Of a stretch of DNA of 56,525 nucleotides, positions 6,314 to 29,346 are shown in pieces (position 1 is the first letter of the stretch; each line of letters opens with the position of its first letter). Origin of the DNA: Chloroflexota bacterium (GTDB taxonomy: Bacteria; Chloroflexota; Dehalococcoidia; SM23-28-2; HRBIN24); the NCBI GenBank assembly GCA_030550295.1, contig JAUQPQ010000003.1, forward strand, positions 1 through 56,525, in the 5' to 3' direction. Under the pieces are notes generated by a model. That model was given only the letters and a program-made list of their open reading frames with translations, was not told the DNA's origin and made no database searches. The position numbers were made by a program, and so were the translations under genes.

Positions 6314-7440
6314 AGCAGCCGCCTAACGTCGGTCTTTTCGTAACGTCGCAGCTTCTCCTCGTCTAGCTGGATGCCAAGCCCAGGGCCCTGTGGGACGTGC
6401 ACATAGCCCTGTTGGTCCACCTGGAGGGGTTCAGTAAGCATGAAGTCGCGGATCTCAGGCGTCCAGCACGGAGGTTCTAGAGGGAACTCAAGGAAAGTCA
6501 CTCCTCCTGCCGCTGCCACGTGCATGTTGGCCACCAGGCCTATCCCGTTGGTCCAAGTGTGGGGCGTAAACTCCCGTTTGGCCTGCCTGATCATGAAGGC
6601 GAGGCGGTGGCACGTCCAGATGCCCCCTACGAAGGTGCAATCGGGCTGGTAGACGTCAAGGGAATTATGTTCTAGGTAAGCTGATATCTCCTCTGGGCCG
6701 CGGGCCAGTTCGCCCCCAGCGAGGCGTAGCGAGTTCAAATGTGACCTGAGCTCGGCCAGGCCGTGGTAGTCGAAGGCGTCAAGGGGCTCCTCTAGCCAGT
6801 ACACTCCCATGGCCTCCAGCTCTTTGGCTACCCATATAGCAGTGCGTAAGTCCCACCGGTGCGGCTGCTGATCAGGGGCGATGCGCCATCCCCAGTTAGC
6901 GTCCACCATGATGGTCATGGAATCGCCCACAGAGGTGCGCACCGCCTCCAGCACCTTTAAGTCTTCCCTGGGATCGGCCGAGTGGAAGCGGAGCTTGATG
7001 GCGCGGAACCCAAGAGCTTGGAACTCTTGTACCACGTCCACCCTCTCAGCTGCTGGCCGTAGCTCAGCAGTAGAGGCGTAGGCCAAAAGCCGGGGCTCGC
7101 CACCTCCTAGTAGGCGGTAGATGGGCTCTCCCAAGGCCTTCCCCACGATGTCCCACAGGGCTACCTCCAAAGCCCAAGGCCTACCCACGAAGAAAGAGAA
7201 TGACCGCAGGTTCTCCACGTGACGCACGATGTCCATGGGGTCTTGTCCCACGAGGAGGGCCCCGGCTACGTCCCAGCGCACCGGCACACCCCCTGAGCCT
7301 ACCCCCACAATCCCTTCGTCTGTGTGGACTTCTACCACATGCACTCGGGCGACATGGCTTGGGAAAGGCTGCCAGGTGGGGTGGAAGGCTCGAGGCAGGG
7401 GGAACTCGAAGACCCTAGTCTTTACTTCTGTGACCTTCAC
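6310..7440 (-). CDS. Mandelate racemase/muconate lactonizing (enolase superfamily) enzyme
   Basis: ALWDIVGK, IKLR, MVDAN, WLEEP, AGGE, PH, PGLGI; GTG 7440 follows SD GGAGGT. Confidence 0.88.
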   Translation of the reverse strand: MKVTEVKTRVFEFPLPRAFHPTWQPFPSHVARVHVVEVHTDEGIVGVGSGGVPVRWDVAGALLVGQDPMDIVRHVENLRSFSFFVGRPWALEVALWDIVGKALGEPIYRLLGGGEPRLLAYASTAELRPAAERVDVVQEFQALGFRAIKLRFHSADPREDLKVLEAVRTSVGDSMTIMVDANWGWRIAPDQQPHRWDLRTAIWVAKELEAMGVYWLEEPLDAFDYHGLAELRSHLNSLRLAGGELARGPEEISAYLEHNSLDVYQPDCTFVGGIWTCHRLAFMIRQAKREFTPHTWTNGIGLVANMHVAAAGGVTFLEFPLEPPCWTPEIRDFMLTEPLQVDQQGYVHVPQGPGLGIQLDEEKLRRYEKTDVRRLL

Positions 7441-7535
7441 TGCACCTCCCTGAATCACAGGCCGTTAACTTTAGTAGGCACTTGCTATTCTAAGCGATCC
7501 ACAAGTAATCTGTGGAAGGCAAATGGAGGTGTGCC

Positions 7536-8729
7536 ATGCCTGGCCCGTTGGAAGGGATAAGGGTTCTGGATTTCACCATCGCTCAGCAGGGGCCCTATGC
7601 CACTCTTTTGCTATCCCACATGGGAGCTGAGGTAATTAAGGTAGAGATCCCTGGCCGGGGCGACGTCACCCGGGAGATAGCCCGCGATCGCCGTACCAGG
7701 CTGAGCTACTGCTTTTTGGCTCTCAACCTAGGGAAAAAGAGTGTGACCATCAACTTGAAAAGCGCTAAAGGGCGGCAGCTGGTTCTAGACCTAGTCCAGC
7801 ATTGCGACGTGGTGGTGGAGAACTTCAACCCTGGCGTCATGGAACGGCTGGGGCTAAGTTATGAAACGCTGCGAGCGGTCAACCCGAGGATTATATACGC
7901 CAGTGCATCGGCCTTTGGCACGAAAGGCCCTTGGGGGAAACTCCCCGGGGTAGACCTGTTGGCCCAGGCGATGGGTGGCCTCATGAGCGTTACTGGGTAC
8001 CCAGGAGAGCCTCCCCACCCAGTGGGGGCAGCCGTAGCCGACCACATTGGCGCAGTCACTTTGGCCCTAGGGGTGGTAGCTGCCCTTGTGGCCAGGGAGC
8101 ATACTGGTCAGGGGCAAAAGGTGGAGACGTCCCTCCTAGGAAGCATCATGGCTGCCCAGTCTTGGGAGATCGCCTATTACCTTAACAGTGGGGAATCGCC
8201 TTCAAAGGCGGGGAGGGGCCATAGCCTAGTCCCCCATATTTACGGCGTCTATAGGACGGCCGACGGTTTTCTAGCCATAGGGACGGTGCCTATAGAGCAG
8301 TGGGAGCAGTTCTGTCAGGCCATCGGACTGCCCCACCTGGCCTCAGACCCACGCTTTGCGCGGTTAGGGGAACGTCTACGTCGGTTAGAAGAGCTGCGTC
8401 CTATCCTGGACGACCACTTCTCCCAGCGCCCTACCGAAGAATGGGTAGCGTGTCTTCGGGCCATTGATATCCCGGCTGGCCCAGTGCTGGACTACATCGA
8501 AATGGCTAAAGAGGAACAGGTTCACGCCAACAGGTACCTGGTGCAGATAGAGCACCCGAGGGCGGGGGAGGTAACGGTGGTCAACGTGCCCATACAGTTT
8601 TCGGCTACCCCTGGCTCCATAAAGGGGCCAGAGCCAGAGCTAGGCCAACACACTGAGGAAGTGCTAAGCATCTACCTGGGCCTGTCTGCTGAAGAGATAG
8701 CAACCCTCCGGGCCGATGGCGTTATCTAA
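7536..8729 (+). CDS. Family III CoA-transferase (CaiB/BaiF)
   Basis: GPLEGIRVLDF, GAEVIKVE, NLGKKSV, ENFNPG, catalytic VAD, PELGQHT. Confidence 0.9.
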   Translation: MPGPLEGIRVLDFTIAQQGPYATLLLSHMGAEVIKVEIPGRGDVTREIARDRRTRLSYCFLALNLGKKSVTINLKSAKGRQLVLDLVQHCDVVVENFNPGVMERLGLSYETLRAVNPRIIYASASAFGTKGPWGKLPGVDLLAQAMGGLMSVTGYPGEPPHPVGAAVADHIGAVTLALGVVAALVAREHTGQGQKVETSLLGSIMAAQSWEIAYYLNSGESPSKAGRGHSLVPHIYGVYRTADGFLAIGTVPIEQWEQFCQAIGLPHLASDPRFARLGERLRRLEELRPILDDHFSQRPTEEWVACLRAIDIPAGPVLDYIEMAKEEQVHANRYLVQIEHPRAGEVTVVNVPIQFSATPGSIKGPEPELGQHTEEVLSIYLGLSAEEIATLRADGVI

Positions 8730-10003
8730 GGCGACGTCTCCTCTAATCGTCCCTGATACAGCAAGGGGACGGGGCTAGGGAGAGGGCCCATGACCACCCC
8801 AGCCTCCCTCAATGAGGCTATCTCCTGGTCTGAAAGCCCCAGAAGTTCCCGTAGTATTTCGTCAGTGTGTTCCCCCAGGGCAGGAGGTGGCCCTTTGACA
8901 CCACCAGGAGTGACGGAGAGCTTAACAGGGGTATTGGGCACCTTCAAGCGAAAGCCCTTAGGGTGTTCTACTTCCACAAACATCTCCCTGGCAAGAATTT
9001 GGGGCATCTCGGCTGCCTGGGCGATGTTGTTCAAGGGCCCGCAAGGGATGCCCACCCCTCCCAGCTCCTCCAACCACTCTTGAGTAGTCTTCTGGCGGAA
9101 CGCCTCCGAAAGGATAGGCTCCAGAAGGTGATGATGCCGCGTGCGCAGTGCCGGGGTCTCGAAGCGGGGGTCATCGATGAGGTGAGCTAGACCCAAGAGG
9201 GCCAGCAAGATCTCCCACTGGTTCTCTACCCCCCAGCTGAGGGCGACCACGATCCACCCGTCCTTAGTAGGGAACGCCTGGAAAGGGGTGACCGATGGGT
9301 GCCTGGTCCCTAGGGGGCCAGGGACTTCCCCAGTGGCGAAATAGCGCACAAAGGCGTTTTCTAAAATGGCGATCTGGCAGTCCAGCATGCTTATGTCTAC
9401 CATTTGGCCTCGGCCAGTCCTATCCCTCTCCCTCAGGGCAGCAAGGATGCCGATGGCGGCGAAAAGTCCTGCTGCAATGTCGCCAAGGGAAATGCCTGGC
9501 CGCACCGGGGGGCCATCAGGGTAACCGGTGATGCTCATGATACCGCCCATCCCCTGGACGATGATGTCTAGGGCTGGCTTTTCCCGCCATGGCCCTGTTT
9601 GCCCGAAGCCCGAAACAGCGCAATATACGAGGCGGGGGTTACGCTGGGAGAGCACCTGATAGCCTAGGCCGAGCTTTTCCATCGTCCCAGGGGTGAAGTT
9701 CTCCACCAGAACATCGGCCTTCTCGACGAGGCGCAGGAGGAGCTCTTGGCCTTCCGACCGTTTAAGGTCGATGCATATGCTGCGCTTGCCCCGGTTGATG
9801 GAAAAGAAGTAGGCTGATTCATCGTCTATATAGGGCTCGGTGGTGCGGGCGACATCGCCATAAGGGGTTCGCTCCACCTTTATGACGTCGGCCCCCAAAT
9901 CGCACATGATCATGGTGGCAAAGGGCCCCGCCAATACCCAGCTCAAGTCTAGGACTACCAAGCCTTCGAGGGGCCCTCTTGTAGGACGCCTCTTTTCCCC
10001 CAT
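8726..10003 (-). CDS. Family III CoA-transferase (CaiB/BaiF)
   Basis: GPLEGLVVLDLS, AGPF, NRGKRS, ENFTPG, SLGD, PALGEHT. Confidence 0.9.
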   Translation of the reverse strand: MGEKRRPTRGPLEGLVVLDLSWVLAGPFATMIMCDLGADVIKVERTPYGDVARTTEPYIDDESAYFFSINRGKRSICIDLKRSEGQELLLRLVEKADVLVENFTPGTMEKLGLGYQVLSQRNPRLVYCAVSGFGQTGPWREKPALDIIVQGMGGIMSITGYPDGPPVRPGISLGDIAAGLFAAIGILAALRERDRTGRGQMVDISMLDCQIAILENAFVRYFATGEVPGPLGTRHPSVTPFQAFPTKDGWIVVALSWGVENQWEILLALLGLAHLIDDPRFETPALRTRHHHLLEPILSEAFRQKTTQEWLEELGGVGIPCGPLNNIAQAAEMPQILAREMFVEVEHPKGFRLKVPNTPVKLSVTPGGVKGPPPALGEHTDEILRELLGLSDQEIASLREAGVVMGPLPSPVPLLYQGRLEETSP

Positions 10004-20493: not shown

Positions 20494-21237
20494 TTAGGTA
20501 TGGCCAGTGATGCGGTAGGCAGCCTCTTGGAAGCGGCGGCGGTAATCGTCTTGCTGGCGCAAGGTCTGGTTTACTTCTCCCTCTTGGTGAAGGGGTTCCC
20601 AAGTTCCTAGGGAAAGGTCAAGTATCTGCTTAGCTGCCTTAAGCGCCGGTAGTGAGTGGGCGGCCATCTGGGTGGCGAGGGAAAGGGCGCCTGCCAGCAG
20701 CTCTTCCTGGGGGAGGACGCGGTTGACGAGGCCCATACTTAGAGCCTCTTGGCAGTCTACGGGGCGGGCGGTGTAAATGATCTCCTTGGCTCGGGACAGC
20801 CCCACCAGGCGGGGGAGATAGGCTGCTCCAGTGACTAGGCCGTATTCGGCTCCAGGGAAGCGGAAGCGGACGTTGTGGGAGGCGAGACGGATGTCGCAGT
20901 AGATGGCCAGAAGGGCTCCTGCCCCGTAGGCGTAGCCATTGACGGCGGCGATGACAGGCTTGGGAAAGCGCAACACTTTGATGAGGGTGTTAGCTATCAA
21001 GGGGCCCAGATCGGGCTGGGCCACGGCCTCGGCCATATCGGCGCCGGCACAGAAGGCCTTATCCCCTGCCCCAGTGACCACAAGCACATGGACTGGATCG
21101 TCTTGGGCCAGGGCGTCCAGGGCGGCTGAGAGCTCTTGCGCCATTTGGCGGTCTATGGCGTTGCGGGTGTCGGGGCGGTTGAGGCGTAGGAGGGCCACAT
21201 GGCCCTGCTGTTCGAGTTGAAGACGCTGGTAGTCCAT
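20494..21237 (-). CDS. Crotonase-superfamily protein
   Basis: LNRPDTRNAI, KAFCAGADM, IAAVNGYAYGAG; canonical catalytic Glu residues absent. Confidence 0.85.
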   Translation of the reverse strand: MDYQRLQLEQQGHVALLRLNRPDTRNAIDRQMAQELSAALDALAQDDPVHVLVVTGAGDKAFCAGADMAEAVAQPDLGPLIANTLIKVLRFPKPVIAAVNGYAYGAGALLAIYCDIRLASHNVRFRFPGAEYGLVTGAAYLPRLVGLSRAKEIIYTARPVDCQEALSMGLVNRVLPQEELLAGALSLATQMAAHSLPALKAAKQILDLSLGTWEPLHQEGEVNQTLRQQDDYRRRFQEAAYRITGHT

Positions 21238-21304
21238 TTACGTGCCCGATAAGTAAAGGGCCTTGGGGAGAGAGGGCAACGCCTTCCCCAAGGCCCTATT
21301 GCTC

Positions 21305-22537
21305 CTAAACGGACAGGATGTGGATGCTAAGGGCTGCTGCCTCGCCCCTAACCATGCCGCCCCCGTTCTCGGTGAGGCCCACTTTGGCCCCCTCTACCTG
21401 GCGGGCCCCTGCCTCTCCTCTGAGCTGCCAGAAGATCTCACATATCTGGGCCACGCCGGTGGCGCCTATGGGGTGGCCTTTGGCAAGTAGCCCGCCGCTG
21501 GTATTAACGGGCTGCTTGCCCCCAAGCTTAGTGTAGCCGCTACGGATGAGGGAGGGGCCCTCCCCCTCGGCGCAAAGGCCGAGCTCTTCGTAAATTATGA
21601 GCTCAGCCGGGGCGCTGGCATCGTGCACTTCTATGACGTCCAAGTCCTTGGGGCCGATGCCCGCCTTCTGGTAGGCCAGCTGGGCTGTCTCGGTGGTGAT
21701 GCCCGGCTCCCCAGGAAGCCGGTCGCGACCTGAGGCCAGCACGGAGGCCCTCACATATACCGGCCGGGAAGTAAACTGGCGGGCCTTGTCAGCAGCCACA
21801 AGCACGACCGCTGCTGCCCCATCGCTTATGGGCGAGCACATAAGCCTAGTTAGAGGCTCCACTACGAGGGGGGCGTTGAGGATGTCCTCTATTGTGTACT
21901 CGCCTCCATATTGAGCCTTGGGGTTTAGGGAGCCGTGGTATAGGTTCTTTACCGCAACACGTGCGAAGTCTTCCTTAGTAGCGCCTGTCCTCTCCATATA
22001 ACGGCGGGCGAAGACGGCATAGAAGTCCATGAACATGCTCCGCCGCTCTCCGGCCCCCTCCTCGAAGGTTGGCTGCCTTTCGCTACTCTTCTCCTTGGCC
22101 TCCTTAGCGGCCTTGGCCATCTGCTGTACCCACTCCACGTCCACCGCGGCGCCGATAGCCTGGAAGGATCGCCTTTTATCTTCGTGGGTGAGCTTCTCCA
22201 TCCCTAGCACCAGGGCGATGTCGTACATGCCAGAGGCTACGTAGAGCCAGCCTAGGTGGAAGGCCGTGGAGGAGCTGGCGCAAGCGTTCTCCGTATTTAT
22301 TACAGGTATGCCCCCTATCCCTAGCTCCCTTAGCACCACCTGCCCCCGGATCATCTCTTGGCCGGTGATAAGGCCAGCGGTAGCGTTGCCTACCACTGCC
22401 ACCTGAAGCTTGGACTTGTCTATCCCTGCCGAATCGAGGGCCCCCTGTACCGCTTCCCGTGCCAAATCCTTCAAGCTACGGTCTAGAAACTTCCCAAACT
22501 TGGTCATCCCAGCCCCGATGATGGCTACGTCGCGCAT
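21305..22537 (-). CDS. Thiolase, SCP2/lipid-transfer type
   Basis: ENACASS, CSPISDGAAA, EVHDA, SGGLLAKGHPIGATG, ENGGG. Confidence 0.9.
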   Translation of the reverse strand: MRDVAIIGAGMTKFGKFLDRSLKDLAREAVQGALDSAGIDKSKLQVAVVGNATAGLITGQEMIRGQVVLRELGIGGIPVINTENACASSSTAFHLGWLYVASGMYDIALVLGMEKLTHEDKRRSFQAIGAAVDVEWVQQMAKAAKEAKEKSSERQPTFEEGAGERRSMFMDFYAVFARRYMERTGATKEDFARVAVKNLYHGSLNPKAQYGGEYTIEDILNAPLVVEPLTRLMCSPISDGAAAVVLVAADKARQFTSRPVYVRASVLASGRDRLPGEPGITTETAQLAYQKAGIGPKDLDVIEVHDASAPAELIIYEELGLCAEGEGPSLIRSGYTKLGGKQPVNTSGGLLAKGHPIGATGVAQICEIFWQLRGEAGARQVEGAKVGLTENGGGMVRGEAAALSIHILSV

Positions 22538-22601
22538 AACCTTTCCCTCCTTCTATAAAACCTGCCGTTATTATAGCACAAAGAGCTGGTGGGCCTACGC
22601 G

Positions 22602-23222
22602 TTATTGCTGCCGCCCCACTGCCTGGGAGTATAGCTCCTCCATATCGTCATAAGTGAGGGCGCCGTTATGGACGGCCACCACGATTCCGTTGGCGTTCAG
22701 GAACAGGCTCAGGGGCATTCCTATGCCGTGGTAGGCGGGAAAGAGCGTATCGTCAGGGTCGGCTAAGGCTACTGTAAAGGGGGAGGTGTTCTCAGTGGGC
22801 AGCGCCAACTTTTCGAGAAACCTCCTTGCCCGCTCGGCCGGCTCGGCCCGGTTGATGCCGATGACTATCAGGTCAGGATGGGCTTGGCGGAGGCGGTAAA
22901 TATCAACGAGTTCCCGGGCACACGGCTCGCACCAGCTAGCCCAAAAGTTGAGAAGGACGGGCCTGCCACGAAATTCGGCGAGGGTTACCCTTTTTGTTCC
23001 GTCTAGGGTGGAGGCCTCGAAATTGGGGGCCACTTCTCCTTGCCCGGGCCCCACCTTCAGGGTGGGCGCGCCCTCTGGCAGTGGGGTGAACAACAGCTTA
23101 GCGTTCCTAATCCCCTGCTGGGTGCCCAAATATCCGCTCACTTGCAATAGGCCTAGGACGCCCATTACTAGTGCCATTATCCCCATTATGGCTGCTAGGC
23201 GTCTCAGCATCCCTGAAGGCAT
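22602..23222 (-). CDS. TlpA/ResA-like membrane-anchored thioredoxin
   Basis: N-terminal TM, APNF, LLNFWASWCEPC, GMP; start could be ATG 23210. Confidence 0.85.
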   Translation of the reverse strand: MPSGMLRRLAAIMGIMALVMGVLGLLQVSGYLGTQQGIRNAKLLFTPLPEGAPTLKVGPGQGEVAPNFEASTLDGTKRVTLAEFRGRPVLLNFWASWCEPCARELVDIYRLRQAHPDLIVIGINRAEPAERARRFLEKLALPTENTSPFTVALADPDDTLFPAYHGIGMPLSLFLNANGIVVAVHNGALTYDDMEELYSQAVGRQQ

Positions 23223-23225
23223 GGG

Positions 23226-23981
23226 CTACAACGTGGGCGTTAGTTTGGAAAAAGGCCCCCAGTCAAATAAGCTGTTGAGGTTGATGAGACTATTAGTAAA
23301 GATGAGCACTCCTACCACTACCAAAGTGGCCCCGCTCACATAATTTATCACAGGGGAGATGAGCCTAAGCCACCTATATAGGGGCAGAAGGGCATTAAAG
23401 GCTAGGCCCAGGAGTAGGAAGGGGATGGCTAGCCCCGCTGAGTAGGCCCCTAAGAGGACTGCTGCCTGCGCTACGTTAGCGCCGGATACGGCCAGGGCCA
23501 GGATGGCCCCTAGGGTAGGTCCAATACATGGGCTCCAGCCAGCGGCAAAGGAGCAGCCTACTAGAAAGGAACGTAAGTAGCCCGTTCCACCCTCTATTCC
23601 CAGCCGTTGCTCCCTTTCCAAAAAGGGAATGGTGATAACTCCAGCAAGGTGTAGCCCCAAGGCGATGAGCAAGGAGCCGGCCACCTTCTGCACTATGTCT
23701 TGGTGCTCACGCAAAAAAAAGCCGATTATCCCTAAAGATACCCCAAGGGAGACAAAGACGACGGAGAAGCCAAAGGTAAAACTGAGGGAGTGTAGGAAGG
23801 GGGCATACGCCCTTGCCTTTATCTCTGTGGGGGAGCCATGCTTTCCCCCGGTGATTGGGGTAGTGGAGGTACCAGTAAGGTAAGTCAGATAAGGTGGCAC
23901 AAGAGGTAAGAGGCATGGGGAGAGAAAGGAGAAAAGCCCTGCACCCAGCGCCACTAGCAAACTTATGCCTCCCACTTCCAA
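23226..23981 (-). CDS. ccdA: CcdA (DsbD transmembrane domain) electron transporter
   Basis: SFLSPCLLPLVP and WSPCIGPTLG; TTG 23981 follows SD GGAGG and overlaps the end of the upstream gene. Confidence 0.88.
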   Translation of the reverse strand: MEVGGISLLVALGAGLFSFLSPCLLPLVPPYLTYLTGTSTTPITGGKHGSPTEIKARAYAPFLHSLSFTFGFSVVFVSLGVSLGIIGFFLREHQDIVQKVAGSLLIALGLHLAGVITIPFLEREQRLGIEGGTGYLRSFLVGCSFAAGWSPCIGPTLGAILALAVSGANVAQAAVLLGAYSAGLAIPFLLLGLAFNALLPLYRWLRLISPVINYVSGATLVVVGVLIFTNSLINLNSLFDWGPFSKLTPTL

Positions 23982-26194
23982 TCTGGGATACCTCCTGCCG
24001 GCCAAATTGGCAGCTTTTTAACCAGAAGGTCTACTCGGTTTCCCCAGCGGCGCAGAAAGCGGTAGAAATTTCGTTTGCTTAACCGGTCGCGCTCGTGGGG
24101 GTCTAACCTTTCCCATTCCCAGTGGGTAGATCGGTAAGCAGGAATATCAGGGCAGCATACTGTGCGCCACCCCAGTGCCCTTACCCTGAAGGACAAGTCA
24201 AGGTCTAGGTGACGGTAGAAGCGGAATTTTTCGTCCAAGGGTGTTACTTGCTGGATGACCATCCTTGGTATGAGCATGAGATAACCTTGGAGGGCGTCCA
24301 CGTCGCAGTCCAGTTCTACCTCATAGAAGTGGCGAAGGTCGGCGGTGTAAAGGCCCCAACGGCCCATAATCCCTAGGGTTGGATCTTGGGAGAGGCGTTC
24401 CAGATAGGGTTCCAGGGGCCCAGTGAGCCTTACTGAGCTGTCCAACCACAGGAACCAGCGGCCCTTGGCTTGTCGAAGGGTCACGTTGCGGGCCATAGCC
24501 TCTCCCAGGAAGTGGTCGGCACGGAGCACCCGTACTCGAGGGTCGGTGGCGGCTAGATGTTCCAAGAAGGATACCGTCTCGTCAGTGGAGCCGTTGTCCA
24601 CCAATATGATCTCGTCGTCTTCCCTTAGCCAGGGCAAGAGGCTATCTATGCAAGGCTGGAGGTGAGGCAAGTTGTCCCGGGCCAATAGGCTCACCGTTAT
24701 GCGCTTTTGGGGTGGCTCGTGAAGAAGGGAGGGGACATCGGTGCTACGTGATATGGTGGGGAATTCTTCTTTCCACTTGGGTCTAAGAAGTATGCGAGAG
24801 GTGCGGCGCCCATCGCGCACTTCGTAGCCCCTACCCTCGATTTGGGCCCTTAGGGCGTCTGCATCGGCATATCGGCGCTGACATCGCAAACGGTCTCGAG
24901 CCCTAGCCAGAGAGGCGATATCGGCAGGAAGCTCTACTTTCTCGGGGGGACGGTCCAGGGCCAGCCCTAGCACCGAGTCAAATTCCAGTAAAAGCCTTCT
25001 TTTGGTGGAGCTGGGGAGGCTGGAGCGTGCCACCTCCCAGGCGACGGCCAATGCCCTTGGGAGGGACAGGTCATAACACACTGCCTCCCAAAACATCTTT
25101 CGGAGCTTCTCCGCTTTATCAGGGTCAGGTCGGCCCCTGCTACCAGTTTGGGTATGGAGCTGTAACCTGGAAAGGGCGCGCTGGGAGGCCCGCAGGGCCT
25201 CCCAGGTGAAGTTCATGGGATGCCTGTAGTGGACGGTGGCGCACAGGTAACGGAAGGCTAAGGGATGGAAGCCGCGGGCTTCCAGGTCGGACAGGGTGTA
25301 GACGTTGCCTGTGGACTTGGCCATCTTTAGCCCGTCGACTAAAAGGTGGGCCCCGTGAACCCAATACCGAGCGAAGGGGCTGTCGTAGGCGGCCTCGCTC
25401 TGGGCTATCTCGTCCTCATGGTGAGGGAAGATATTGTCCACTCCTCCGGTGTGGATGTCCAGGTGGGGCCCTAAGTAACGTATTGCCATGGCAGAGCACT
25501 CGATGTGCCAACCGGGGAAGCCATAGCCCCAGGGGCTGAGCCACTTGAGGAGGCGGCCTGGTTCGGCTGCCTTCCATAGGGCAAAGTCCCTAGGGTCTTC
25601 CTTTAGCGGATCGACATCGGAGCGGACTCCTGCTAAAAGCTCTGGGCCTGTCTGCCCAGAAAGCCTTCCGTAGGTGGGGAAGGCGGATACGCGAAAATAG
25701 ACGTTCCCACTGCGCTCATAGGCGTACCCTTTCTCTAGTAGCCGTTCCACCAGCCTTATCATCTCTTCCACGTGTTCTGTGGCCTTAGGATAGTAGTGGG
25801 CAGATAAGATATTGAGACGCCTTTCGTCGCGTAAGAAGGCCTCGGTGTAGAAGTGGGCGATCTCCTGTGGGGTCTTACCCTCGGCGAGGGCGGCAGCGAT
25901 AACCTTGTCATCGCCCCTTTCTAGCTGCTCTTGACGCATGTGTCCTACATCTGTGATGTTCTTGACGTGGATCACCTCGTATCCCAGGGATTCAAGCACC
26001 CTGCGCAGCCAGTCCACCATGAGATATGTGCGCAAGTTGCCGATGTGCGCATACCTGTATACAGTTGGCCCGCACGAATATAGGCGGACGCGCCCTGGTT
26101 CTAAGGGGGTAAAAGGCTCGATACGCCTGGTCAGGGTGTTGAACAGATGGAGAGATGGGGCCGGGACCCGGCCCTCAGGTGATCTCTCAACCGT
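23963..26194 (-). CDS. cysS: Cysteinyl-tRNA synthetase fused to a C-terminal GT2 glycosyltransferase domain
   Basis: The frame stays open upstream of the track start (LHLFNTLTRRIEPF, YSCGPTVY, HIGN). Also NITDV, DFALWK, GWHIECSAM, FPHHEDE, KMAKS, ADALR; then VDNGSTD, ARNVTLRQAKGRWFLWLD, DLDLSFR. No ATG/GTG/TTG upstream of the conserved N-terminus; ACG 26194 proposed as start. Confidence 0.85.
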   Translation of the reverse strand, partial: TVERSPEGRVPAPSLHLFNTLTRRIEPFTPLEPGRVRLYSCGPTVYRYAHIGNLRTYLMVDWLRRVLESLGYEVIHVKNITDVGHMRQEQLERGDDKVIAAALAEGKTPQEIAHFYTEAFLRDERRLNILSAHYYPKATEHVEEMIRLVERLLEKGYAYERSGNVYFRVSAFPTYGRLSGQTGPELLAGVRSDVDPLKEDPRDFALWKAAEPGRLLKWLSPWGYGFPGWHIECSAMAIRYLGPHLDIHTGGVDNIFPHHEDEIAQSEAAYDSPFARYWVHGAHLLVDGLKMAKSTGNVYTLSDLEARGFHPLAFRYLCATVHYRHPMNFTWEALRASQRALSRLQLHTQTGSRGRPDPDKAEKLRKMFWEAVCYDLSLPRALAVAWEVARSSLPSSTKRRLLLEFDSVLGLALDRPPEKVELPADIASLARARDRLRCQRRYADADALRAQIEGRGYEVRDGRRTSRILLRPKWKEEFPTISRSTDVPSLLHEPPQKRITVSLLARDNLPHLQPCIDSLLPWLREDDEIILVDNGSTDETVSFLEHLAATDPRVRVLRADHFLGEAMARNVTLRQAKGRWFLWLDSSVRLTGPLEPYLERLSQDPTLGIMGRWGLYTADLRHFYEVELDCDVDALQGYLMLIPRMVIQQVTPLDEKFRFYRHLDLDLSFRVRALGWRTVCCPDIPAYRSTHWEWERLDPHERDRLSKRNFYRFLRRWGNRVDLLVKKLPIWPAGGIPDWKWEA
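26152..26186 (-). promoter_or_regulatory. Candidate bacterial SECIS element
   Basis: Minus strand GAGATcacctgaGGGCCG-GGTCC-CGGCCCcATCTC directly after UGA; apical loop starts with GGU 18 nt downstream of UGA. Confidence 0.6.
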
Positions 26195-26399
26195 GTTCTC
26201 CCTCCCAGCCTATCTCCACTTCGTCTTCGCCCCAAATGATGATGGGGACAGTAACTGAGTACTGAAGCGCCTCTTCCCACCACTGGGTCTTTCGGTCAAC
26301 CGCCCTCTCCTCTACTTCAAAGCCCCTTGCCCGTAGGTCGGCCACCGCTTTCTGGCTGACGGGGCAGCTAGTAAGTGTATAGACTATAACTTTGCTCAT
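26175..26399 (-). CDS. Glutaredoxin-like probable selenoprotein (CxxS plus C-terminal Sec)
   Basis: VIVYTLTSCPVS, TVPII, EIGWEGEHG-TGA(26189-26187)-GAG-ATC-ACC-TGA; hairpin downstream of the first TGA. Confidence 0.7.
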
Positions 26400-26450
26400 G
26401 GTGCCACCTACCCCTAATGATATCCCGCGTGGTAGGCCGTGTCAGCACGC

Positions 26451-27833
26451 CTACACCCGTATAAGCTTCCAATGTCCCCCTCGGAACCGAAGCCACATGA
26501 GAAAGGCCCTTGTGCTTATGTCTATTACCGCCCCTATCCATGCGCCCGGTGCTCCCAGGCCAGCCTTTATGGCCAGCAGATAAGCCGGCCCTAGCCGTAC
26601 TATCCACGTCCCGAAGGCGGTGATAACCATCACTGAACCAGTATCGCCGGCTCCTCTGAGGCCGCCGCTGAAGGCCAAGTTAGCCCCTAACGCGGGCATG
26701 GCGAAACCGAAAATGAACATGAGCCTACGCCCTAGCTCTACTACCTCTTCGGCCCCCTCACCCGCCACGAAAAGAGATGTTATAGGCCCGCCGAAGAGCA
26801 TAAGGAGGAGCCCCACCGCCCCCATAACGGCTGAGGCGTAAAGGGCAGCCGAATAGACGGCCCTCTCAGCAAAGCGAGGCCTCTTTGCTCCCAGTCCCTG
26901 GCCTACCAGGGCGGCGGAGGCTACACTTATGCCAAAGCCGGCGTTAAAGGCGAGGCTCTGTATTGCCAACGCTACTCCATGGGCAGCAACGGCTGTGGTG
27001 CCTAGCGAGGCCACGATTCTGGTATAAAGCATGAAGGCCAAGTTAAATTGGGCCTGTTCCAGGGCAGTTGGCGCCCCTATACCCAAGATTCGCCACATCT
27101 CGCCTAAATGGGGTTTGGCCTTGGGTGACCACCTGAGCACCAGCCTGCGAGAGGCCAACAAGGCCAATATTAAGACTGCCCCAAGCGAGGCGGCGATAGT
27201 AAATCCTGCCCCAGACCCTACTACCTCGAGGCGTGGGAAGGGACCAGGGCCGTTTATGAGGGCATACGCCATGACGGCATTGATCACGTTCACCAATACC
27301 CCTATCGCCATGGGGGTACGCGTGTCTCCAGCCCCTTGAAGGACGGAGTTGGCTGAGGAGAGCACCGACCAGAAAGGCATGCCAAAGGCTGCCGCCTGCA
27401 GATACTGGGTGCCCAGGCGGCGTGCCTCTGCCTCGGCCCCTAGCATGCCTAAGGCCCAGCGGCTGAAGAACCAAAGGCTTACCATCAGTGCTGCCCCCCA
27501 TACCGATGCCATAGCTAAGGCAGCAGCTACTGCCCTTTCGGCCCTTGTCTGATCTTTGGCCCCCACGCTTCGGGCCACCACAGCGATAGCTCCAACCCCT
27601 ATGGCGTTTATGCCCCCAAAGGCAAACCAGAAGATCTGGGCCCCAAGGCGTAGACCTGCTAAAGCATCCTCCCCTAGATGCCCGACTAAAAAGGTGTCCA
27701 CCAGTTGGACCATGGAATAGCTCACTTGCTGCACCATTACGGGCCAGGCCAGCCGGAACACTGTTCGCCCCAGGCGGGTCTCATCTAGGGCAGCTATAGG
27801 CAGGGCCCTACTCCTGGACGCCGATTCCGTCAT
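26451..27833 (-). CDS. MATE-family efflux transporter/flippase
   Basis: LAWPVM, VDTFLVGHLG, LQGAGDTRTPM, LRGAGDT; about 12 TM. Confidence 0.9.
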   Translation of the reverse strand: MTESASRSRALPIAALDETRLGRTVFRLAWPVMVQQVSYSMVQLVDTFLVGHLGEDALAGLRLGAQIFWFAFGGINAIGVGAIAVVARSVGAKDQTRAERAVAAALAMASVWGAALMVSLWFFSRWALGMLGAEAEARRLGTQYLQAAAFGMPFWSVLSSANSVLQGAGDTRTPMAIGVLVNVINAVMAYALINGPGPFPRLEVVGSGAGFTIAASLGAVLILALLASRRLVLRWSPKAKPHLGEMWRILGIGAPTALEQAQFNLAFMLYTRIVASLGTTAVAAHGVALAIQSLAFNAGFGISVASAALVGQGLGAKRPRFAERAVYSAALYASAVMGAVGLLLMLFGGPITSLFVAGEGAEEVVELGRRLMFIFGFAMPALGANLAFSGGLRGAGDTGSVMVITAFGTWIVRLGPAYLLAIKAGLGAPGAWIGAVIDISTRAFLMWLRFRGGHWKLIRV

Positions 27834-27895
27834 CTCTCTACACACAGTAGGGTATGATGATGGTGGGCCTCAAACTAGAGATAGAGCAAGGAGTC

Positions 27896-28522
27896 ATGGA
27901 GGGCCACAAGTGTTTCGCTGCTATCTATGACTTTCTGATGGCTCGGGCAGAGAAGACTTTCATGCGGGCCATTAGGTCAGAGGTAGTAGGGAAGGCCAGG
28001 GGGCGCACGTTAGAGATCGGTTGCGGGACTGGGGCAAGCTTCCCCTATTATCCCGATCCCTCCGCCGTCACTGCTACCGAGCCTGACCCCTTTATGTTGC
28101 AGCGGGCCCGCCGGCGGGCCCGTCTAATGGGTATCCCTTTGACTATCATCAGGGCCCGTGCCGAGCTCCTCCCCTTCCCAGACTCCTCCTTTGATACGGT
28201 GATCAGCGTTTTCGTTTTCTGCAGCGTGCAAGATGTGCGCCGCTCTTTGGCTGAGGTGCGCCGTGTCCTGAGGTCTCATGGGGAGCTACGGTTTTACGAG
28301 CACGTGCGCTACGACCACCGATGGGGCGCCCTGGCCCAAGACGCTGTCACGCCCTTGTGGCAATGGCTAGGGGGAGGGTGCCATCCTAATCGGGACACGC
28401 CACGCCTGCTTGAGGAGGCAGGTTTTAGGATAGTCCGCTTGGAGGTCTTCAAGCTCGATCCGCCTGTGCCGCCGCTACTTTTTATACGGCCCCAGGTCTT
28501 AGGGGTGGCCCGTCCAGTTTAG
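27896..28522 (+). CDS. Class I SAM-dependent methyltransferase
   Basis: LEIGCGTG, LPFPDSSFD, FCSV, EHV, GGCHPNRDT; SD AAGGAG. Confidence 0.88.
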   Translation: MEGHKCFAAIYDFLMARAEKTFMRAIRSEVVGKARGRTLEIGCGTGASFPYYPDPSAVTATEPDPFMLQRARRRARLMGIPLTIIRARAELLPFPDSSFDTVISVFVFCSVQDVRRSLAEVRRVLRSHGELRFYEHVRYDHRWGALAQDAVTPLWQWLGGGCHPNRDTPRLLEEAGFRIVRLEVFKLDPPVPPLLFIRPQVLGVARPV

Positions 28523-28524
28523 CT

Positions 28525-29346
28525 ATGGGCGGTCTTGTTTTGGTGCTAGGGGCAGGGGGGATCCGCGGCTGGGCCCATGTGGGGGTGCTCAAAGTTCTCC
28601 ACCAGGCCCAGCTGCCCATTCAGGCCATAGTAGGGGCTAGCGCAGGATCCCTCATAGGTGCCCTCTATGCTGCCCACCGTGATGTCGGCCTAATGCTGGA
28701 GGTGGCCTCTTCGGCCAACGTGGCCTCTCTGACGACCTGGTTTCTGGGTGGACTGAAGATAGGGCCTGATGCACCGGGGTTTGGGCGACGCCTTTGGCAG
28801 GCCTACGGCCATCTAGACTTCGGGGAGATGGCCATCGCCTTTAGGGCGGCTGCCCTTGATGTGGCTACAGGCGAGCGGGTGCTCATAGGCTCTGGCAACG
28901 TAGGAAGGGCAGTGGAGGCAAGCATACGCCCGCCTGGGCTCTTGCCCCCTGTGCTTATAGGGGGAAGGCCCCTTGTGGACGGTGGCCTGCACGATACTGT
29001 CCCCACCGCTCTAGCTATAGCTGCCTTTCCCCAACTGACAACGGTAGCGGTGCCGGTGGGTGAGTTCATAGTGTTGCCCAAGGCATTACAGCCTATCTCC
29101 CGGCAGGCGTCCCGCGTGATATGGGGCCTTGGTGTGGATCCTCGATCTCGCATAGGGGGGCTGGCCTTCATGGCCCATCTGTTAAGCCAAGGGAGGCCTC
29201 AGAGGCTACCCCCTCAGGCCTACATCGTCCCTCGACTGCGGGGCATCATGGCCATCCTTCCCTTCCGCATAGAAGAGGCCATCCGGCGCGGTGAGAAGGC
29301 AGCTAGGGCCGCCCTACCTTACCTGCGCCAGCTCTTCCAGGGCTAG
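28525..29346 (+). CDS. Patatin-like phospholipase
   Basis: GAGGIRG, GASAG, DGG motifs. Confidence 0.88.
   Translation: MGGLVLVLGAGGIRGWAHVGVLKVLHQAQLPIQAIVGASAGSLIGALYAAHRDVGLMLEVASSANVASLTTWFLGGLKIGPDAPGFGRRLWQAYGHLDFGEMAIAFRAAALDVATGERVLIGSGNVGRAVEASIRPPGLLPPVLIGGRPLVDGGLHDTVPTALAIAAFPQLTTVAVPVGEFIVLPKALQPISRQASRVIWGLGVDPRSRIGGLAFMAHLLSQGRPQRLPPQAYIVPRLRGIMAILPFRIEEAIRRGEKAARAALPYLRQLFQG

What the first reader, a model, noticed from the sequence alone, without database searches (positions are those of the whole stretch)
23963..26194. Cysteinyl-tRNA synthetase fused in frame to a GT2 glycosyltransferase domain
Seen: a complete CysRS (CGPTVY, HIGN, WHIEC, HHEDE Zn ligands, KMAKS, anticodon-type R...ADALR...D helix) continues without a stop into a roughly 230-aa GT-A fold domain (about 24705-24020: VDNGSTD, ARN, WLDSS in place of DxD, DLDLSFR). 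This is not an aaRS architecture I know to be characterised. Unlike MshC it keeps the anticodon-binding region. Inference: channelling of Cys-AMP or Cys-tRNA to a sugar product, S-glycosylation, or tRNA-directed glycosylation.
Basis: partly seen in the sequence, partly recalled or inferred. Interest (0 to 1): 0.85.

Follow-up and report, generated by a model that had tools for sequence, protein, structure and literature searches.

The report
Cysteinyl-tRNA synthetase–glycosyltransferase fusion family
A second cysteinyl-tRNA synthetase gene in this hot-spring bacterium really is fused to a conserved sugar-transferase-like domain, and relatives that keep only the tRNA anticodon reader plus that domain point to an uncharacterised enzyme that works on or with cysteine tRNA.

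Summary
On the minus strand, one open frame (26209..23966, stop 23965-23963) encodes a complete CysRS followed in frame by a GT-A/GT2-like domain. The CysRS has HIGN, WHIEC, HHEDE and KMAKS, and scores 420 bits on TIGR00435 against a cut-off of 340. Contigs from three other public runs show no indel across the junction.

The fusion is not housekeeping: the genome has a separate cysS on another contig.

It is a conserved family. 115 of the 120 best database relatives carry both domains, and 104 of 401 sampled Chloroflexota genomes carry a member. The commonest form is a roughly 300-aa protein: only the CysRS anticodon-binding domain plus the same GT-like domain. The residues matching E. coli anticodon contacts R427, D436 and R439 are kept: invariant in long forms, 83, 84 and 80 (R or K) of 84 in short forms.

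The GT domain is as conserved as the CysRS part but never has DxD (D-[T/S/A/V]-S in 98 of 98 long forms).

Best reading, not shown: a tRNA-Cys-directed GT-like enzyme. Its chemistry is unknown.

Next to it lies a glutaredoxin-like selenoprotein (UGA plus hairpin). That linkage is specific to this order. I found no publication on the fusion.

The parts
23963..26209 (-). Open frame of the CysRS-GT fusion: 748 codons plus the stop at 23965-23963. The upstream in-frame stop is TAG at 26212-26210.
   Evidence: Pfam and NCBIfam; independent contigs without indels
26144..26146 (-). Probable non-canonical CTG start codon, one codon before F-N-T-L-T. No in-frame ATG, GTG or TTG lies upstream of the HIGN motif.
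   Evidence: The same-genus relative L016 has GTG where the window has GTC (26167-26165). Of the family's other loci, L017/L018/L020 have CTG in the same region; L019 has an ATG in another frame. Contigs of three other runs cover the region and none differs there. The start itself is inferred.
25181..26113 (-). CysRS class I catalytic domain (residues 33-343) with CGPTVY, HIGN, WHIEC, HHEDE and KMAKS.
   Evidence: PF01406, E 6e-100; these motifs invariant in 99 long forms; model matches 1u0b_B, TM 0.87 normalised to the target
24806..24934 (-). CysRS anticodon-binding domain (residues about 426-468). R442, Y447, D451 and R454 correspond to E. coli R427, W432, D436 and R439.
   Evidence: CysS_C, 18 bits; R, D, R invariant in 98/98 other long forms; short form residues 9-49 map to E. 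coli 415-455; passages of PMC13449415 naming the four anticodon-domain residues
24005..24715 (-). GT-A fold, GT2-like domain (residues about 499-735).
   Evidence: PF00535 67.8 bits, PF13641; nearest solved folds are ppGalNAc-T2 and other GT-A enzymes; many invariant columns
24434..24442 (-). D590-S591-S592, at the position of the DxD metal and donor motif of GT-A enzymes.
   Evidence: aligns to D-S-D of GalT1 and chondroitin synthase; first D 98/98; middle residue T91, A3, S2, V2; third residue S 98/98 in long forms
26175..26399 (-). Glutaredoxin-like gene of the UXX-star type, directly upstream. The active site is CPVS. An in-frame UGA (26189-26187) is read as selenocysteine, followed by E-I-T and the true stop at 26177-26175.
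   Evidence: 20 of 21 loci have TGA there, and L026 has TGC (Cys). selA, selB, selD and tRNA-Sec are in the genome.
26158..26174 (-). SECIS-like GC-rich hairpin: 7-bp stem and 3-nt loop, starting 16 nt into the UGA-led stretch.
   Evidence: All 20 UGA loci have a GC-rich hairpin (mostly 6-7 bp), with different stem sequences, starting about 16-20 nt from the U of the UGA. It is absent at that position in the Cys locus L026.
26451..27845 (-). MATE family efflux transporter, first gene of the conserved string.
   Evidence: TIGR00797, 262 bits; upstream in 17 of 21 loci of this order
22602..24005 (-). CcdA/DsbD-type membrane thiol-disulfide transporter (23226-24005) and a TlpA/redoxin-like protein (22602-23222), downstream.
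   Evidence: Both lie directly downstream in 4 of 21 loci and a few genes downstream in L030; TlpA alone is also present in L020. They stay next to the Grx gene where the fusion is missing (L199, L200).

Best explanation
The gene encodes a genuine, expressed-as-one-chain paralogue. It is a complete and apparently active cysteinyl-tRNA synthetase of a distinct subtype, called 'type B' here. Its C-terminal tRNA-Cys anticodon-binding domain (ABD) continues into a GT-A (GT2-like) domain. The unit that evolution keeps together is ABD plus GT-like domain, not CysRS plus GT.

The most likely mechanism has three steps. (1) The ABD docks on the GCA anticodon of tRNA-Cys. (2) The GT-like domain follows the ABD after a short linker that the model folds with fair confidence, so it should sit at the anticodon end of the bound tRNA. 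(3) There it transfers a group, most likely a sugar from a nucleotide-sugar bound at a non-DxD donor site, to tRNA-Cys, probably in the anticodon arm. In the long form this is coupled in one polypeptide with charging of the same tRNA. Routine charging is done by the separate cysS.

Shown: the architecture, its conservation, the second cysS, the conserved anticodon-contact residues, the GT-A fold, and the invariant non-DxD motif. Inferred: tRNA binding by the ABD in this context, the position of the GT domain relative to the bound tRNA, any catalysis by the GT domain, the donor, and the acceptor atom.
For: (1) One frame and two domains, with no indel in contigs from three other runs.

(2) 115 of the 120 best relatives found with the GT part carry both PF01406 and PF00535, at 45-67% identity in the GT part.

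(3) The catalytic CysRS motifs are invariant in 99 long forms. The model superposes on the tRNA-bound E. coli enzyme 1u0b_B (TM 0.87, 476 columns).

(4) Short forms of about 300 aa consist of CysS_C plus the same GT-like domain, start with M, and lie on contigs of 29-200 kb. They make up 96 of the best 150 representatives at 50% identity. At least 577 species genomes encode a relative.

(5) The residues matching E. coli R427, W432, D436 and R439 are conserved. Passages of PMC13449415 name these as the anticodon-domain residues. Counts are R 98/98 and 83/84, aromatic 96/98 and 84/84, D 98/98 and 84/84, and R/K 98/98 and 80/84 in long and short forms respectively.

(6) The GT domain is under strong constraint, with tens of invariant columns, and has a GT-A fold.

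(7) The columns shared by long and short forms are rich in Arg, Lys and Tyr: an RR pair, R658, and the E-R-D-R-L-S-K-R-N-F-Y-R helix. This fits phosphate or RNA binding.

(8) 22 of 23 fusion-bearing genomes of this order also have a stand-alone full-length cysS. The exception is 84% complete. Five of five genomes from other families show the same.

(9) There is precedent for enzymes acting on the anticodon of a specific tRNA. GluQRS, an aaRS paralogue, is described in passages of PMC9437257. QTGAL and QTMAN are queuosine-34 glycosyltransferases (abstracts listed).
Against: No activity was tested.

The DxD motif is missing in every long form. In short forms the first-strand Asp of V-D-N-G is mostly lost (D in 17 of 84) and even the first D of the DxD position is kept in only 48 of 84. 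A classical Mn/UDP-sugar mechanism is therefore doubtful for much of the family.

tRNA-Cys genes are essentially the same in genomes with and without the fusion, with one copy recovered per genome in the 30 fetched loci. No acceptor feature stands out.

I know of no glycosylated nucleoside in a bacterial tRNA-Cys (this is recall, not a search).

The spatial relation of the GT site to the anticodon could not be measured, because the tools give no model coordinates.

Gene neighbourhoods differ between lineages and name no pathway.
Confidence: 0.4

Rival explanations
1. Cys-tRNA-dependent cysteinyl transferase. The GT-like domain binds an amino-sugar or glycoside acceptor. It takes the activated cysteine from Cys-tRNA-Cys, which the fused CysRS makes in situ in long forms and the cell's CysRS makes for short forms. 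The product is a cysteinyl-sugar, a route to a low-molecular-weight thiol analogous to MshC chemistry but dependent on tRNA.
For: The CysRS part is fully intact and kept in hundreds of long forms, which is easiest to explain if charged tRNA is the substrate. The ABD-only form could use the cellular Cys-tRNA pool. Degeneration of the donor-site motifs fits a domain that no longer uses an NDP-sugar as donor. In this order the gene sits in a thiol/selenol-redox string: Grx-like selenoprotein, CcdA and TlpA.
Against: No aminoacyl-tRNA transferase with a GT-A fold is known to me (recall). The GT domain follows the ABD, at the end of the tRNA far from the 3' end that carries the amino acid. The redox neighbours are specific to this order: 0 of 80 short-form loci and 0 of 20 loci from other families have them. 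They also persist where the fusion is missing. The model of the long form is compact (pTM 0.81), so no flexible tether that could reach the acceptor end is apparent.
Confidence: 0.2
2. An ordinary second CysRS whose appended GT-like domain is no longer an enzyme. It would be an extra tRNA-binding, chaperoning or regulatory module. The short ABD-GT proteins would be tRNA-Cys-binding factors without catalysis.
For: The canonical DxD is absent everywhere in long forms and the donor-site residues are poorly kept in short forms. The family-wide conserved columns are basic and aromatic. Type-B CysRS serves as the only stand-alone full-length CysRS in at least two genomes, G151 and G385, so the fused CysRS is probably a working synthetase.
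Against: In long forms the putative donor site is invariant in 98 of 98 (E514, N520-G521, D546-H547, N556, D571-x-S573; D519 in 97 of 98). That constraint is hard to explain without a bound ligand. The candidate base residues (L-D-L-D) and a conserved His pair also persist in long forms.
Confidence: 0.2
3. The GT domain glycosylates something other than tRNA: a protein such as the neighbouring UXX-star-type selenoprotein, a lipid or a small molecule. The CysRS/ABD part would only sense or be regulated by tRNA-Cys, or co-localise the enzyme.
For: The nearest solved folds are polypeptide GalNAc-transferases and other GT-A enzymes acting on non-RNA acceptors. The nearest curated HMM is the small-molecule glycosyltransferase MftF, though far below its cut-off. 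In this order the fusion gene starts within about 30 nt of the selenoprotein gene's stop in all 21 loci.
Against: The selenoprotein link is absent outside this order. The selenoprotein gene occurs without the fusion in 7 of 18 fusion-negative relatives. This reading does not explain why the anticodon-contact residues stay invariant in proteins that have lost the whole synthetase body.
Confidence: 0.15
4. Artefact: two separate genes joined by an assembly or sequencing error, or a decaying pseudogene.
For: There is no canonical start codon in the window. One relative, G009, has the GT match in a separate 224-aa open frame.
Against: The same fused frame is found in 115 of 120 database relatives, in 21 loci of this order and in 17 of 20 loci of other families. 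Contigs of three other runs show no indels. Both halves have invariant catalytic motifs.
Confidence: 0.01

Closest known systems
Canonical bacterial cysteinyl-tRNA synthetase (E. coli CysRS, PDB 1LI5/1U0B)
   Same: It is full length and passes the TIGR00435 cut-off. It has the HIGH-type and KMSKS-type motifs, the Cys/Cys/His/Glu zinc-site motifs, and an anticodon-binding domain with the R, aromatic, D and R contact residues. The model superposes on the tRNA-bound structure.
   Different: It carries about 280 extra C-terminal residues forming a GT-A domain. It belongs to a separate clade ('type B', closest to NF011108) from this genome's stand-alone CysRS, with 100% SH-aLRT support for the split. 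It coexists with a housekeeping cysS.
MshC (cysteine:GlcN-Ins ligase of mycothiol synthesis)
   Same: It is a CysRS paralogue used outside translation whose chemistry joins cysteine to a sugar. The catalytic domains are similar (223 bits; folds 8hfn and 3c8z match).
   Different: MshC lacks the anticodon-binding domain and has no GT domain. The fusion scores below the MshC cut-off (223 against 485) and above the cysS cut-off. A separate truncated, MshC-like paralogue exists in many Chloroflexota but not in this genome.
GluQRS/YadB and the vertebrate queuosine glycosyltransferases QTGAL and QTMAN
   Same: These enzymes act on the anticodon nucleotide of one specific tRNA. GluQRS is an aaRS paralogue. 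QTGAL and QTMAN add sugars to queuosine-34 (passages of PMC9437257; abstracts listed).
   Different: [quoted passage not shown] QTGAL and QTMAN act on queuosine, which tRNA-Cys (GCA) does not carry. No sequence relation to either was tested here. That QTGAL belongs to the GT2/GT-A class is my recall.
CysRS* of Desulfobacterales (Mukai et al. 2017, as described in PMC9437257)
   Same: It is a non-canonical CysRS paralogue linked genetically to selenocysteine decoding (passage read). Here too a CysRS paralogue sits next to a UGA-containing gene.
   Different: CysRS* lacks the anticodon-binding domain and travels with extra selB and selC copies. The fusion keeps the domain, and I found one tRNA-Sec and one selB over cut-off in this genome. 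The selenoprotein link is specific to this order.
GT2 glycosyltransferases (Pfam PF00535). The nearest curated model is MftF; the nearest solved folds are ppGalNAc-T2, WrtF and GalT1.
   Same: It scores above the Pfam cut-off, has a GT-A fold, and keeps the V-D-N-G first-strand motif and an acidic L-D-L-D motif in long forms.
   Different: D-[T/S/A/V]-S replaces DxD in all long forms. It reaches only 46-58 bits on MftF (cut-off 280). It is always preceded by a CysRS anticodon-binding domain.

Membership tests
Cysteine--tRNA ligase (TIGR00435 / PF01406) | Whole-protein HMM score above the curated cut-off, covering the full model | tested here: met
   420 bits against 340, model positions 1-459 of 466; PF01406 E 6e-100
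Cysteine--tRNA ligase (TIGR00435 / PF01406) | Class I signature motifs (HIGH-type, KMSKS-type) and the zinc/cysteine-site motifs | tested here: met
   HIGN, KMAKS, CGPTVY, WHIEC and HHEDE are present and invariant or nearly so in 99 long forms. HIGN also occurs in the solved Borrelia enzyme 3sp1. The assignment as zinc ligands is by motif, from recall.
Cysteine--tRNA ligase (TIGR00435 / PF01406) | Anticodon-binding domain with the residues that contact GCA | tested here: met
   R442, Y447, D451 and R454 correspond to E. coli R427, W432, D436 and R439. The Pfam CysS_C hit itself is below cut-off in this protein (18 against 23) but is recorded for many relatives.
Cysteine--tRNA ligase (TIGR00435 / PF01406) | Charges tRNA-Cys with cysteine | not testable with these tools
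   Needs ATP-PPi exchange and aminoacylation assays.
MshC (TIGR03447) | HMM score above cut-off; no anticodon-binding domain | tested here: not met
   223 bits against 485; the anticodon-binding domain is present
Glycosyltransferase family 2, GT-A fold (PF00535) | Pfam score above the gathering cut-off, and GT-A fold | tested here: met
   67.8 bits against 23.3. AlphaFold models have pLDDT 87. The best non-CysRS Foldseek hits are GT-A enzymes at E 1e-10 to 1e-12.
Glycosyltransferase family 2, GT-A fold (PF00535) | DxD (or DxH) metal and donor-binding motif | tested here: not met
   D-S-S in the window aligns to D-S-D of solved GT2 enzymes. The third residue is S in 98 of 98 long forms and D in only 9 of 84 short forms.
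Glycosyltransferase family 2, GT-A fold (PF00535) | Transfers a sugar from a nucleotide-sugar | not testable with these tools
   Needs binding and transfer assays.
tRNA-modifying glycosyltransferases (QTGAL/QTMAN type) | Acceptor is queuosine-34 of a GUN-anticodon tRNA | tested here: not met
   The tethered domain is the tRNA-Cys (GCA) reader, and the genome's tRNA-Cys has G34-C35-A36. This excludes membership, not a similar mode of action.
UXX-star glutaredoxin-like selenoproteins (NF041212), for the upstream gene | HMM score above cut-off; U-x-x-stop C-terminus | tested here: not met
   48.4 bits against 66. The tail is U-E-I-T-stop, one residue longer than U-x-x-stop.
UXX-star glutaredoxin-like selenoproteins (NF041212), for the upstream gene | In-frame UGA with a Cys-containing orthologue, a downstream hairpin and Sec machinery | tested here: met
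   There are 20 TGA loci and 1 TGC locus. Hairpins with differing stems are present. selA, selB, selD and tRNA-Sec are present. The TGC genome, G037, is one of two relatives without a selA match.

The most novel reading that the evidence does not exclude
The ABD-GT module would be the first bacterial RNA glycosyltransferase family. In this reading a GT-A enzyme is aimed at one tRNA by a borrowed synthetase anticodon reader. It places a sugar, or uses a non-DxD site to place another group, on the anticodon arm of tRNA-Cys. In the long form this modification is coupled to charging in a single chain.
Probability: 0.3. Interest if true: 0.9.

Novelty: new variant of a known kind. Interest (0 to 1): 0.72.

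Why it matters
Synthetase paralogues and fusions have repeatedly led to new biochemistry, for example MshC, GluQRS and CysRS*. Here a whole, active-looking CysRS, or in most relatives only its anticodon reader, is joined to a strongly conserved GT-A domain with an unusual donor site. About a quarter of sampled Chloroflexota genomes carry a member, and the family holds several hundred sequence clusters.

If the domain acts on tRNA-Cys, this would be a new kind of tRNA modification enzyme in bacteria. It would also be a clear example of domain borrowing for substrate targeting. If instead it uses Cys-tRNA as a cysteine donor, it would be a new fold for aminoacyl-tRNA transferases and a possible route to an unknown thiol.

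Either way the hypothesis is directly testable with recombinant protein, tRNA-Cys and nucleotide-sugars. There is also a practical annotation point. Pipelines call these genes 'cysteine--tRNA ligase' or 'glycosyltransferase', truncate the N-terminus where the start is CTG, and cut the neighbouring selenoprotein at its UGA.

Tried and rejected
(1) Complex prediction of the G037 fusion with its natural Cys-form Grx-like neighbour returned 'no answer', score 0.00. This is not evidence either way.

(2) Expression. No RNA holder was listed for the stretch. The one metatranscriptome laid (X15, about 3% of it read) put 0 reads on it, so there was no test.

(3) tRNA-Cys comparison between genomes with the fusion (17 sequences) and without it (13 sequences) showed no distinguishing nucleotide.

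(4) Link to the selenocysteine trait. selA is found in 39 of 41 relatives regardless of the fusion, so there is no correlation.

(5) Link to the truncated MshC-like CysRS paralogue. It co-occurs with the fusion in this order (13 of 23 fusion-bearing genomes against 0 of 18 without). It lies 6-15 kb from the short form in 5 of 5 Limnocylindria-type genomes. However, the phylum-wide MshC-model search was not discriminating at my threshold (282 of 401 genomes hit, including single-CysRS genomes). Strong hits also occur in a family with 0 of 17 ABD-GT genes. In the tree the truncated clade groups with type A CysRS, not with the fusions. I therefore rejected the 'split enzyme' idea.

(6) Programmed -1 frameshift joining the Grx-like ORF to the fusion. 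I rejected this because the relative frame differs among loci and several have stops in between.

(7) RNAalifold on the post-UGA stretch found no consensus because the hairpins were misaligned. Per-sequence folds were used instead.

(8) Rfam search of 21000-29000 and a promoter/terminator scan gave nothing relevant or above chance.

(9) Neighbourhoods of short forms and of long forms in other families gave no shared pathway.

(10) Two giant multi-GT2 proteins among the profile hits are generic GT2 repeats.

(11) Haft & Tolstoy 2025 (mSystems), cited for the UXX-star families, is not held. It may describe this neighbourhood. Supplements of papers were not consulted.

(12) The search of earlier findings returned nothing for this place.

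Full report
OBSERVATION

On the minus strand a single frame is open from 26209 to 23966, with the stop at 23965-23963 and an upstream in-frame TAG at 26212-26210.

Pfam finds the class I CysRS catalytic domain (residues 33-343, E 6e-100), a weak CysS_C anticodon-binding hit (426-468, 18 bits against a 23-bit cut-off), and Glycos_transf_2 (516-631, E 1e-18). NCBIfam's cysS equivalog model is passed at 420 bits against 340, over positions 1-459 of 466. MshC is not passed, at 223 bits against 485.

The junction is not an assembly error. Logan contigs of three other public runs, all hot-spring metagenomes, lie on 23900-26450 with 0-2 differing letters and no inserted or deleted letters. One 2145-base piece covers 24274-26418 (run X10) and one covers 24209-25522 (run X7).

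START CODON

No in-frame ATG, GTG or TTG exists before the TTG inside H-I-G-N-L at 26035. This is why ORF listing and the public gene call (685 aa) truncate the protein.

The same-genus relative has GTG where the window has GTC (26167-26165). Three genomes of the sister genus also lack a canonical start and have CTG just upstream of the conserved (Y/F)-N-T-L-T. Contigs of three other runs cover this region and none differs there.

I take CTG at 26146-26144 as the probable start. This is an inference.

NOT THE HOUSEKEEPING ENZYME

The genome is 1.58 Mb in 127 contigs and 95.7% complete. It has a second, stand-alone cysS on contig C19 that scores higher (482 bits, 461-aa frame). It has one tRNA-Cys (GCA).

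Among 41 genomes of the same order, 23 carry the fusion. By family the counts are f1 6/6 including the window, f2 1/1, f4 15/19, f5 1/1, f3 0/1 and f6 0/13. Of those 23, 22 also have a stand-alone full-length cysS. The exception, G033, is 84% complete. Five of five genomes from four other Chloroflexota families show the same pattern.

A maximum-likelihood tree was built from 49 CysRS domains (quick search, SH-aLRT support only, midpoint root). It splits with 100% support into two groups. 'Type A' holds most stand-alone enzymes plus a clade of truncated paralogues. 'Type B' holds all 29 fusion domains, the stand-alone enzymes of two genomes of family f47, and one CysRS that lies tail-to-tail with a short GT gene. 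The fused CysRS is therefore a distinct and probably functional synthetase type. It is not a decayed copy of the housekeeping gene.

A CONSERVED FAMILY WHOSE CORE IS ABD PLUS GT

A search with only the GT part returned 271 proteins. Of the 120 listed, 115 carry both PF01406 and PF00535. They are about 670-750 aa long and 45-67% identical in the GT part. Where sources name them, the names are Dehalococcoidia or Chloroflexota 'cysteine--tRNA ligase'.

In an alignment of 99 long forms the CysRS signature motifs are invariant, and so are dozens of GT-domain columns.

The decisive observation came from searching shorter proteins. Many proteins of about 300 aa, starting with M and lying on contigs of 29-200 kb, consist of the CysRS C-terminal anticodon-binding domain followed by the same GT-like domain at 36-41% identity.

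A profile of 15 such proteins finds 493 clusters (50% identity) at E<=1e-30 among 1.84 billion representatives. I classified the best 150 as follows:
- 96 are short ABD+GT forms, 86 of which begin with M.
- 30 are GT-only or N-terminally cut.
- 11 are long forms.
- 9 are intermediates.
- 4 are short forms without a detectable ABD.

A scan of one genome per species found at least 577 genomes encoding a relative. The best 80 are mostly titled Candidatus Limnocylindria or Chloroflexota.

In an even sample of the phylum, 104 of 401 genomes and 58 of 218 genera have a member at E<=1e-25. Both forms occur, and some genomes of family f47 have both. This tally includes one genome, G384, that the tool flags as unpublished. 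No sequence from it is used.

Of 20 loci from other families with long open frames that I fetched, 17 have CysRS and GT collinear, 2 are short forms, and 1 has a short GT gene convergent with a type-B cysS.

ESM Atlas clusters are automatically named 'Cysteinyl-tRNA ligase anticodon binding/Glycosyl transferase family 2', with Chloroflexota or Actinomycetota as the commonest taxa. This is a lead only. The architecture is thus visible in databases.

My literature searches found no paper on it. Two reviews of aaRS paralogues that I searched by term list CysRS* and MshC, but no glycosyltransferase fusion (passages only).

THE ANTICODON READER IS INTACT

phmmer aligns short-form residues 9-49 to E. 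coli CysRS residues 415-455. Passages of PMC13449415 name R427, W432, D436 and R439 as the anticodon-domain residues of E. coli CysRS, with R427 bonding to G34.

The corresponding positions are R21, W26, D30 and R33 in short form P0185, and R442, Y447, D451 and R454 in the window protein. Their conservation across 98 other long forms and 84 short representatives is:
- First Arg: 98/98 long, 83/84 short.
- Aromatic residue: 96/98 long, 84/84 short.
- Asp: 98/98 long, 84/84 short.
- Second Arg (or Lys): 98/98 long, 80/84 short.

Proteins that have lost the whole synthetase body still keep the residues that read GCA. This is the main reason to think the GT-like domain works on or with tRNA-Cys.

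THE GT-LIKE DOMAIN

AlphaFold models are confident. The long form has pLDDT 87 and pTM 0.81. The short form has pLDDT 87 and pTM 0.84.

The long form's best PDB match is the tRNA-bound E. coli CysRS 1u0b_B, with TM 0.87 normalised to the target. The GT part of both models matches GT-A enzymes best: ppGalNAc-T2, the WrtF fucosyltransferase and a Leptospira GT2, at 14-19% identity.

Sequence alignment to solved GT2 enzymes puts W-L-D-S-S opposite their D-S-D. In long forms the motif is D-[T/S/A/V]-S without exception. The first D and the third-position S are each 98/98. The upstream donor-site residues are invariant or nearly so (D519 is 97/98), as are L-D-L-D and a His pair near the C-terminus.

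In short forms much of the donor site is not kept. The Asp of V-D-N-G is present in 17 of 84, the first D of the DxD position in 48 of 84, and a third-position D in 9 of 84. The alignment of such diverse short forms is noisy, so these numbers are approximate.

What is shared family-wide is an Arg/Lys/Tyr-rich set: an RR pair, R658, and the E-R-D-R-L-S-K-R-N-F-Y-R helix.

The domain is therefore constrained and probably binds a ligand in long forms. It fails the DxD test for a classical GT2. The nearest curated HMM is MftF, at 46-58 bits against a cut-off of 280.

CONTEXT

In this order all 21 loci examined have a 70-aa glutaredoxin-like ORF directly upstream on the same strand. 17 of 21 have a MATE transporter before that. 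CcdA and TlpA-like genes both follow directly in 4 of 21; in L030 they lie a few genes downstream, and L020 has TlpA alone.

The Grx-like ORF does not end at its TGA. The next twelve bases (E-I-T/S then a stop, in nearly all loci) and a GC-rich hairpin are conserved beyond it in 20 of 20 TGA loci. One genome, G037, has TGC (Cys) there and lacks the hairpin at that position.

The genome has selA, selB, selD (itself with an in-frame TGA) and tRNA-Sec. G037 is one of only two relatives without a selA match.

NCBIfam places the protein nearest the 'Uxx-star glutaredoxin-like (seleno)protein' subfamily, but below cut-off at 48 bits against 66, and with one extra tail residue. A 2026 review lists these families and offers no function beyond possible metal or substrate binding (passages of PMC13188914).

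This linkage is specific to this order:
- 0 of 80 short-form loci and 0 of 20 loci of other families have Grx, MATE, CcdA or TlpA homologues within the flanks.
- 7 of 18 fusion-negative relatives still have the Grx-like gene.
- One of these, G027, keeps MATE-Grx-CcdA-TlpA with the fusion missing.
- Two genomes of one genus without the fusion have Arg at the Sec position.

I therefore treat the redox string as a co-transcribed neighbour in this lineage, not as the key to the fusion's function.

Short forms in Limnocylindria-type genomes are followed by a roughly 100-aa protein with an H-E-x-x-H motif, and preceded divergently by an HTH protein and a rhomboid. Long forms elsewhere have varied neighbours: peptidase S51, YqeY and a LON substrate-binding domain protein.

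MECHANISM

Shown:
- Two intact-looking modules lie in one chain.
- A separate housekeeping cysS exists.
- The family-wide unit is ABD plus GT-like domain.
- The anticodon-contact residues are conserved.
- The fold is GT-A with an invariant non-DxD site.

Inferred:
- The ABD docks on the GCA anticodon.
- The GT domain sits at the anticodon end. It directly follows the ABD, and the linker is modelled with fair confidence, with block pLDDT of 78-93.
- It modifies tRNA-Cys there, with charging coupled in the long form.

I give this 0.4. The rivals are:
- A Cys-tRNA-dependent cysteinyl transfer to a sugar acceptor (0.2).
- A non-catalytic tRNA-binding appendage on a second CysRS (0.2).
- A GT acting on a non-tRNA acceptor, with the tRNA reader as sensor (0.15).
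- Artefact (0.01).

Against the preferred reading: there is no assay. The donor motifs are degenerate in short forms. tRNA-Cys genes are identical in genomes with and without the gene. I had no access to model coordinates to check geometry.

VERDICT

It is an unstudied, phylum-wide protein family. Databases already hold it under generic names. Its function is open and directly testable.

I rate it a new variant of a known kind (synthetase paralogues and fusions, and tRNA-directed modification enzymes), with interest 0.72.

Noticed in passing
window 26399..26158 (-): The 70-aa glutaredoxin-like ORF upstream is a selenoprotein gene cut short by annotation. An in-frame UGA (26189-26187) is followed by E-I-T, the true stop (26177-26175) and a SECIS-like hairpin. 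It is a below-cut-off relative of NCBIfam's Uxx-star family, with a U-x-x-x-stop tail.
   Followed up: yes
window 26209..26035 (-): The fusion gene has no canonical start codon. The probable start is CTG at 26146-26144, lying just after the SECIS-like hairpin of the upstream gene. Within the family, the three genomes of the sister genus also lack ATG, GTG or TTG there, while the other two have GTG or ATG. This may mean CUG initiation or termination-reinitiation coupling.
   Followed up: partly
e.g. L030:2643-3725 (+); G021, G009 and many others; not found in G000: A third CysRS-family gene of about 400 aa lacks the anticodon-binding domain. It scores 372 bits on cysS and 344 bits on MshC (below the 485 cut-off). 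It is common in Chloroflexota and lies 6-15 kb from the short ABD-GT gene in 5 of 5 Limnocylindria-type genomes. Its role is unknown; it could be an MshC-like ligase or a CysRS*-like enzyme.
   Followed up: partly
L051:8918-9214 (+) and 21 other short-form loci: A roughly 100-aa protein with an H-E-x-x-H motif and no Pfam hit follows the short ABD-GT gene, overlapping or abutting its stop, in Limnocylindria-type genomes.
   Followed up: partly
L201 and L202 (G029, G031): In one genus that lacks the fusion, the Grx-like protein has Arg (CGG/CGC) at the selenocysteine position and a changed tail (G-E-Q-G-R-E-I-A).
   Followed up: no
L177 (G317) 7399-9728: A short-form GT gene lies tail-to-tail with a type-B cysS gene, so the two are adjacent but not fused.
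   Followed up: no
G009:C85:15272-17300 (L131): In this relative the GT match sits in a separate 224-aa open frame behind the CysRS part. This could be a frameshift or an assembly error.
   Followed up: no
G000:C60:4487-5416: The selD gene of this genome carries one in-frame TGA, so SelD itself is probably a selenoprotein.
   Followed up: no
window 21256-21298: There is an Rfam hit to HIV_FS2 on both strands, below its gathering score (32.6 against 44 bits). It lies between the enoyl-CoA hydratase and thiolase genes. It is most likely just a palindromic hairpin.
   Followed up: no
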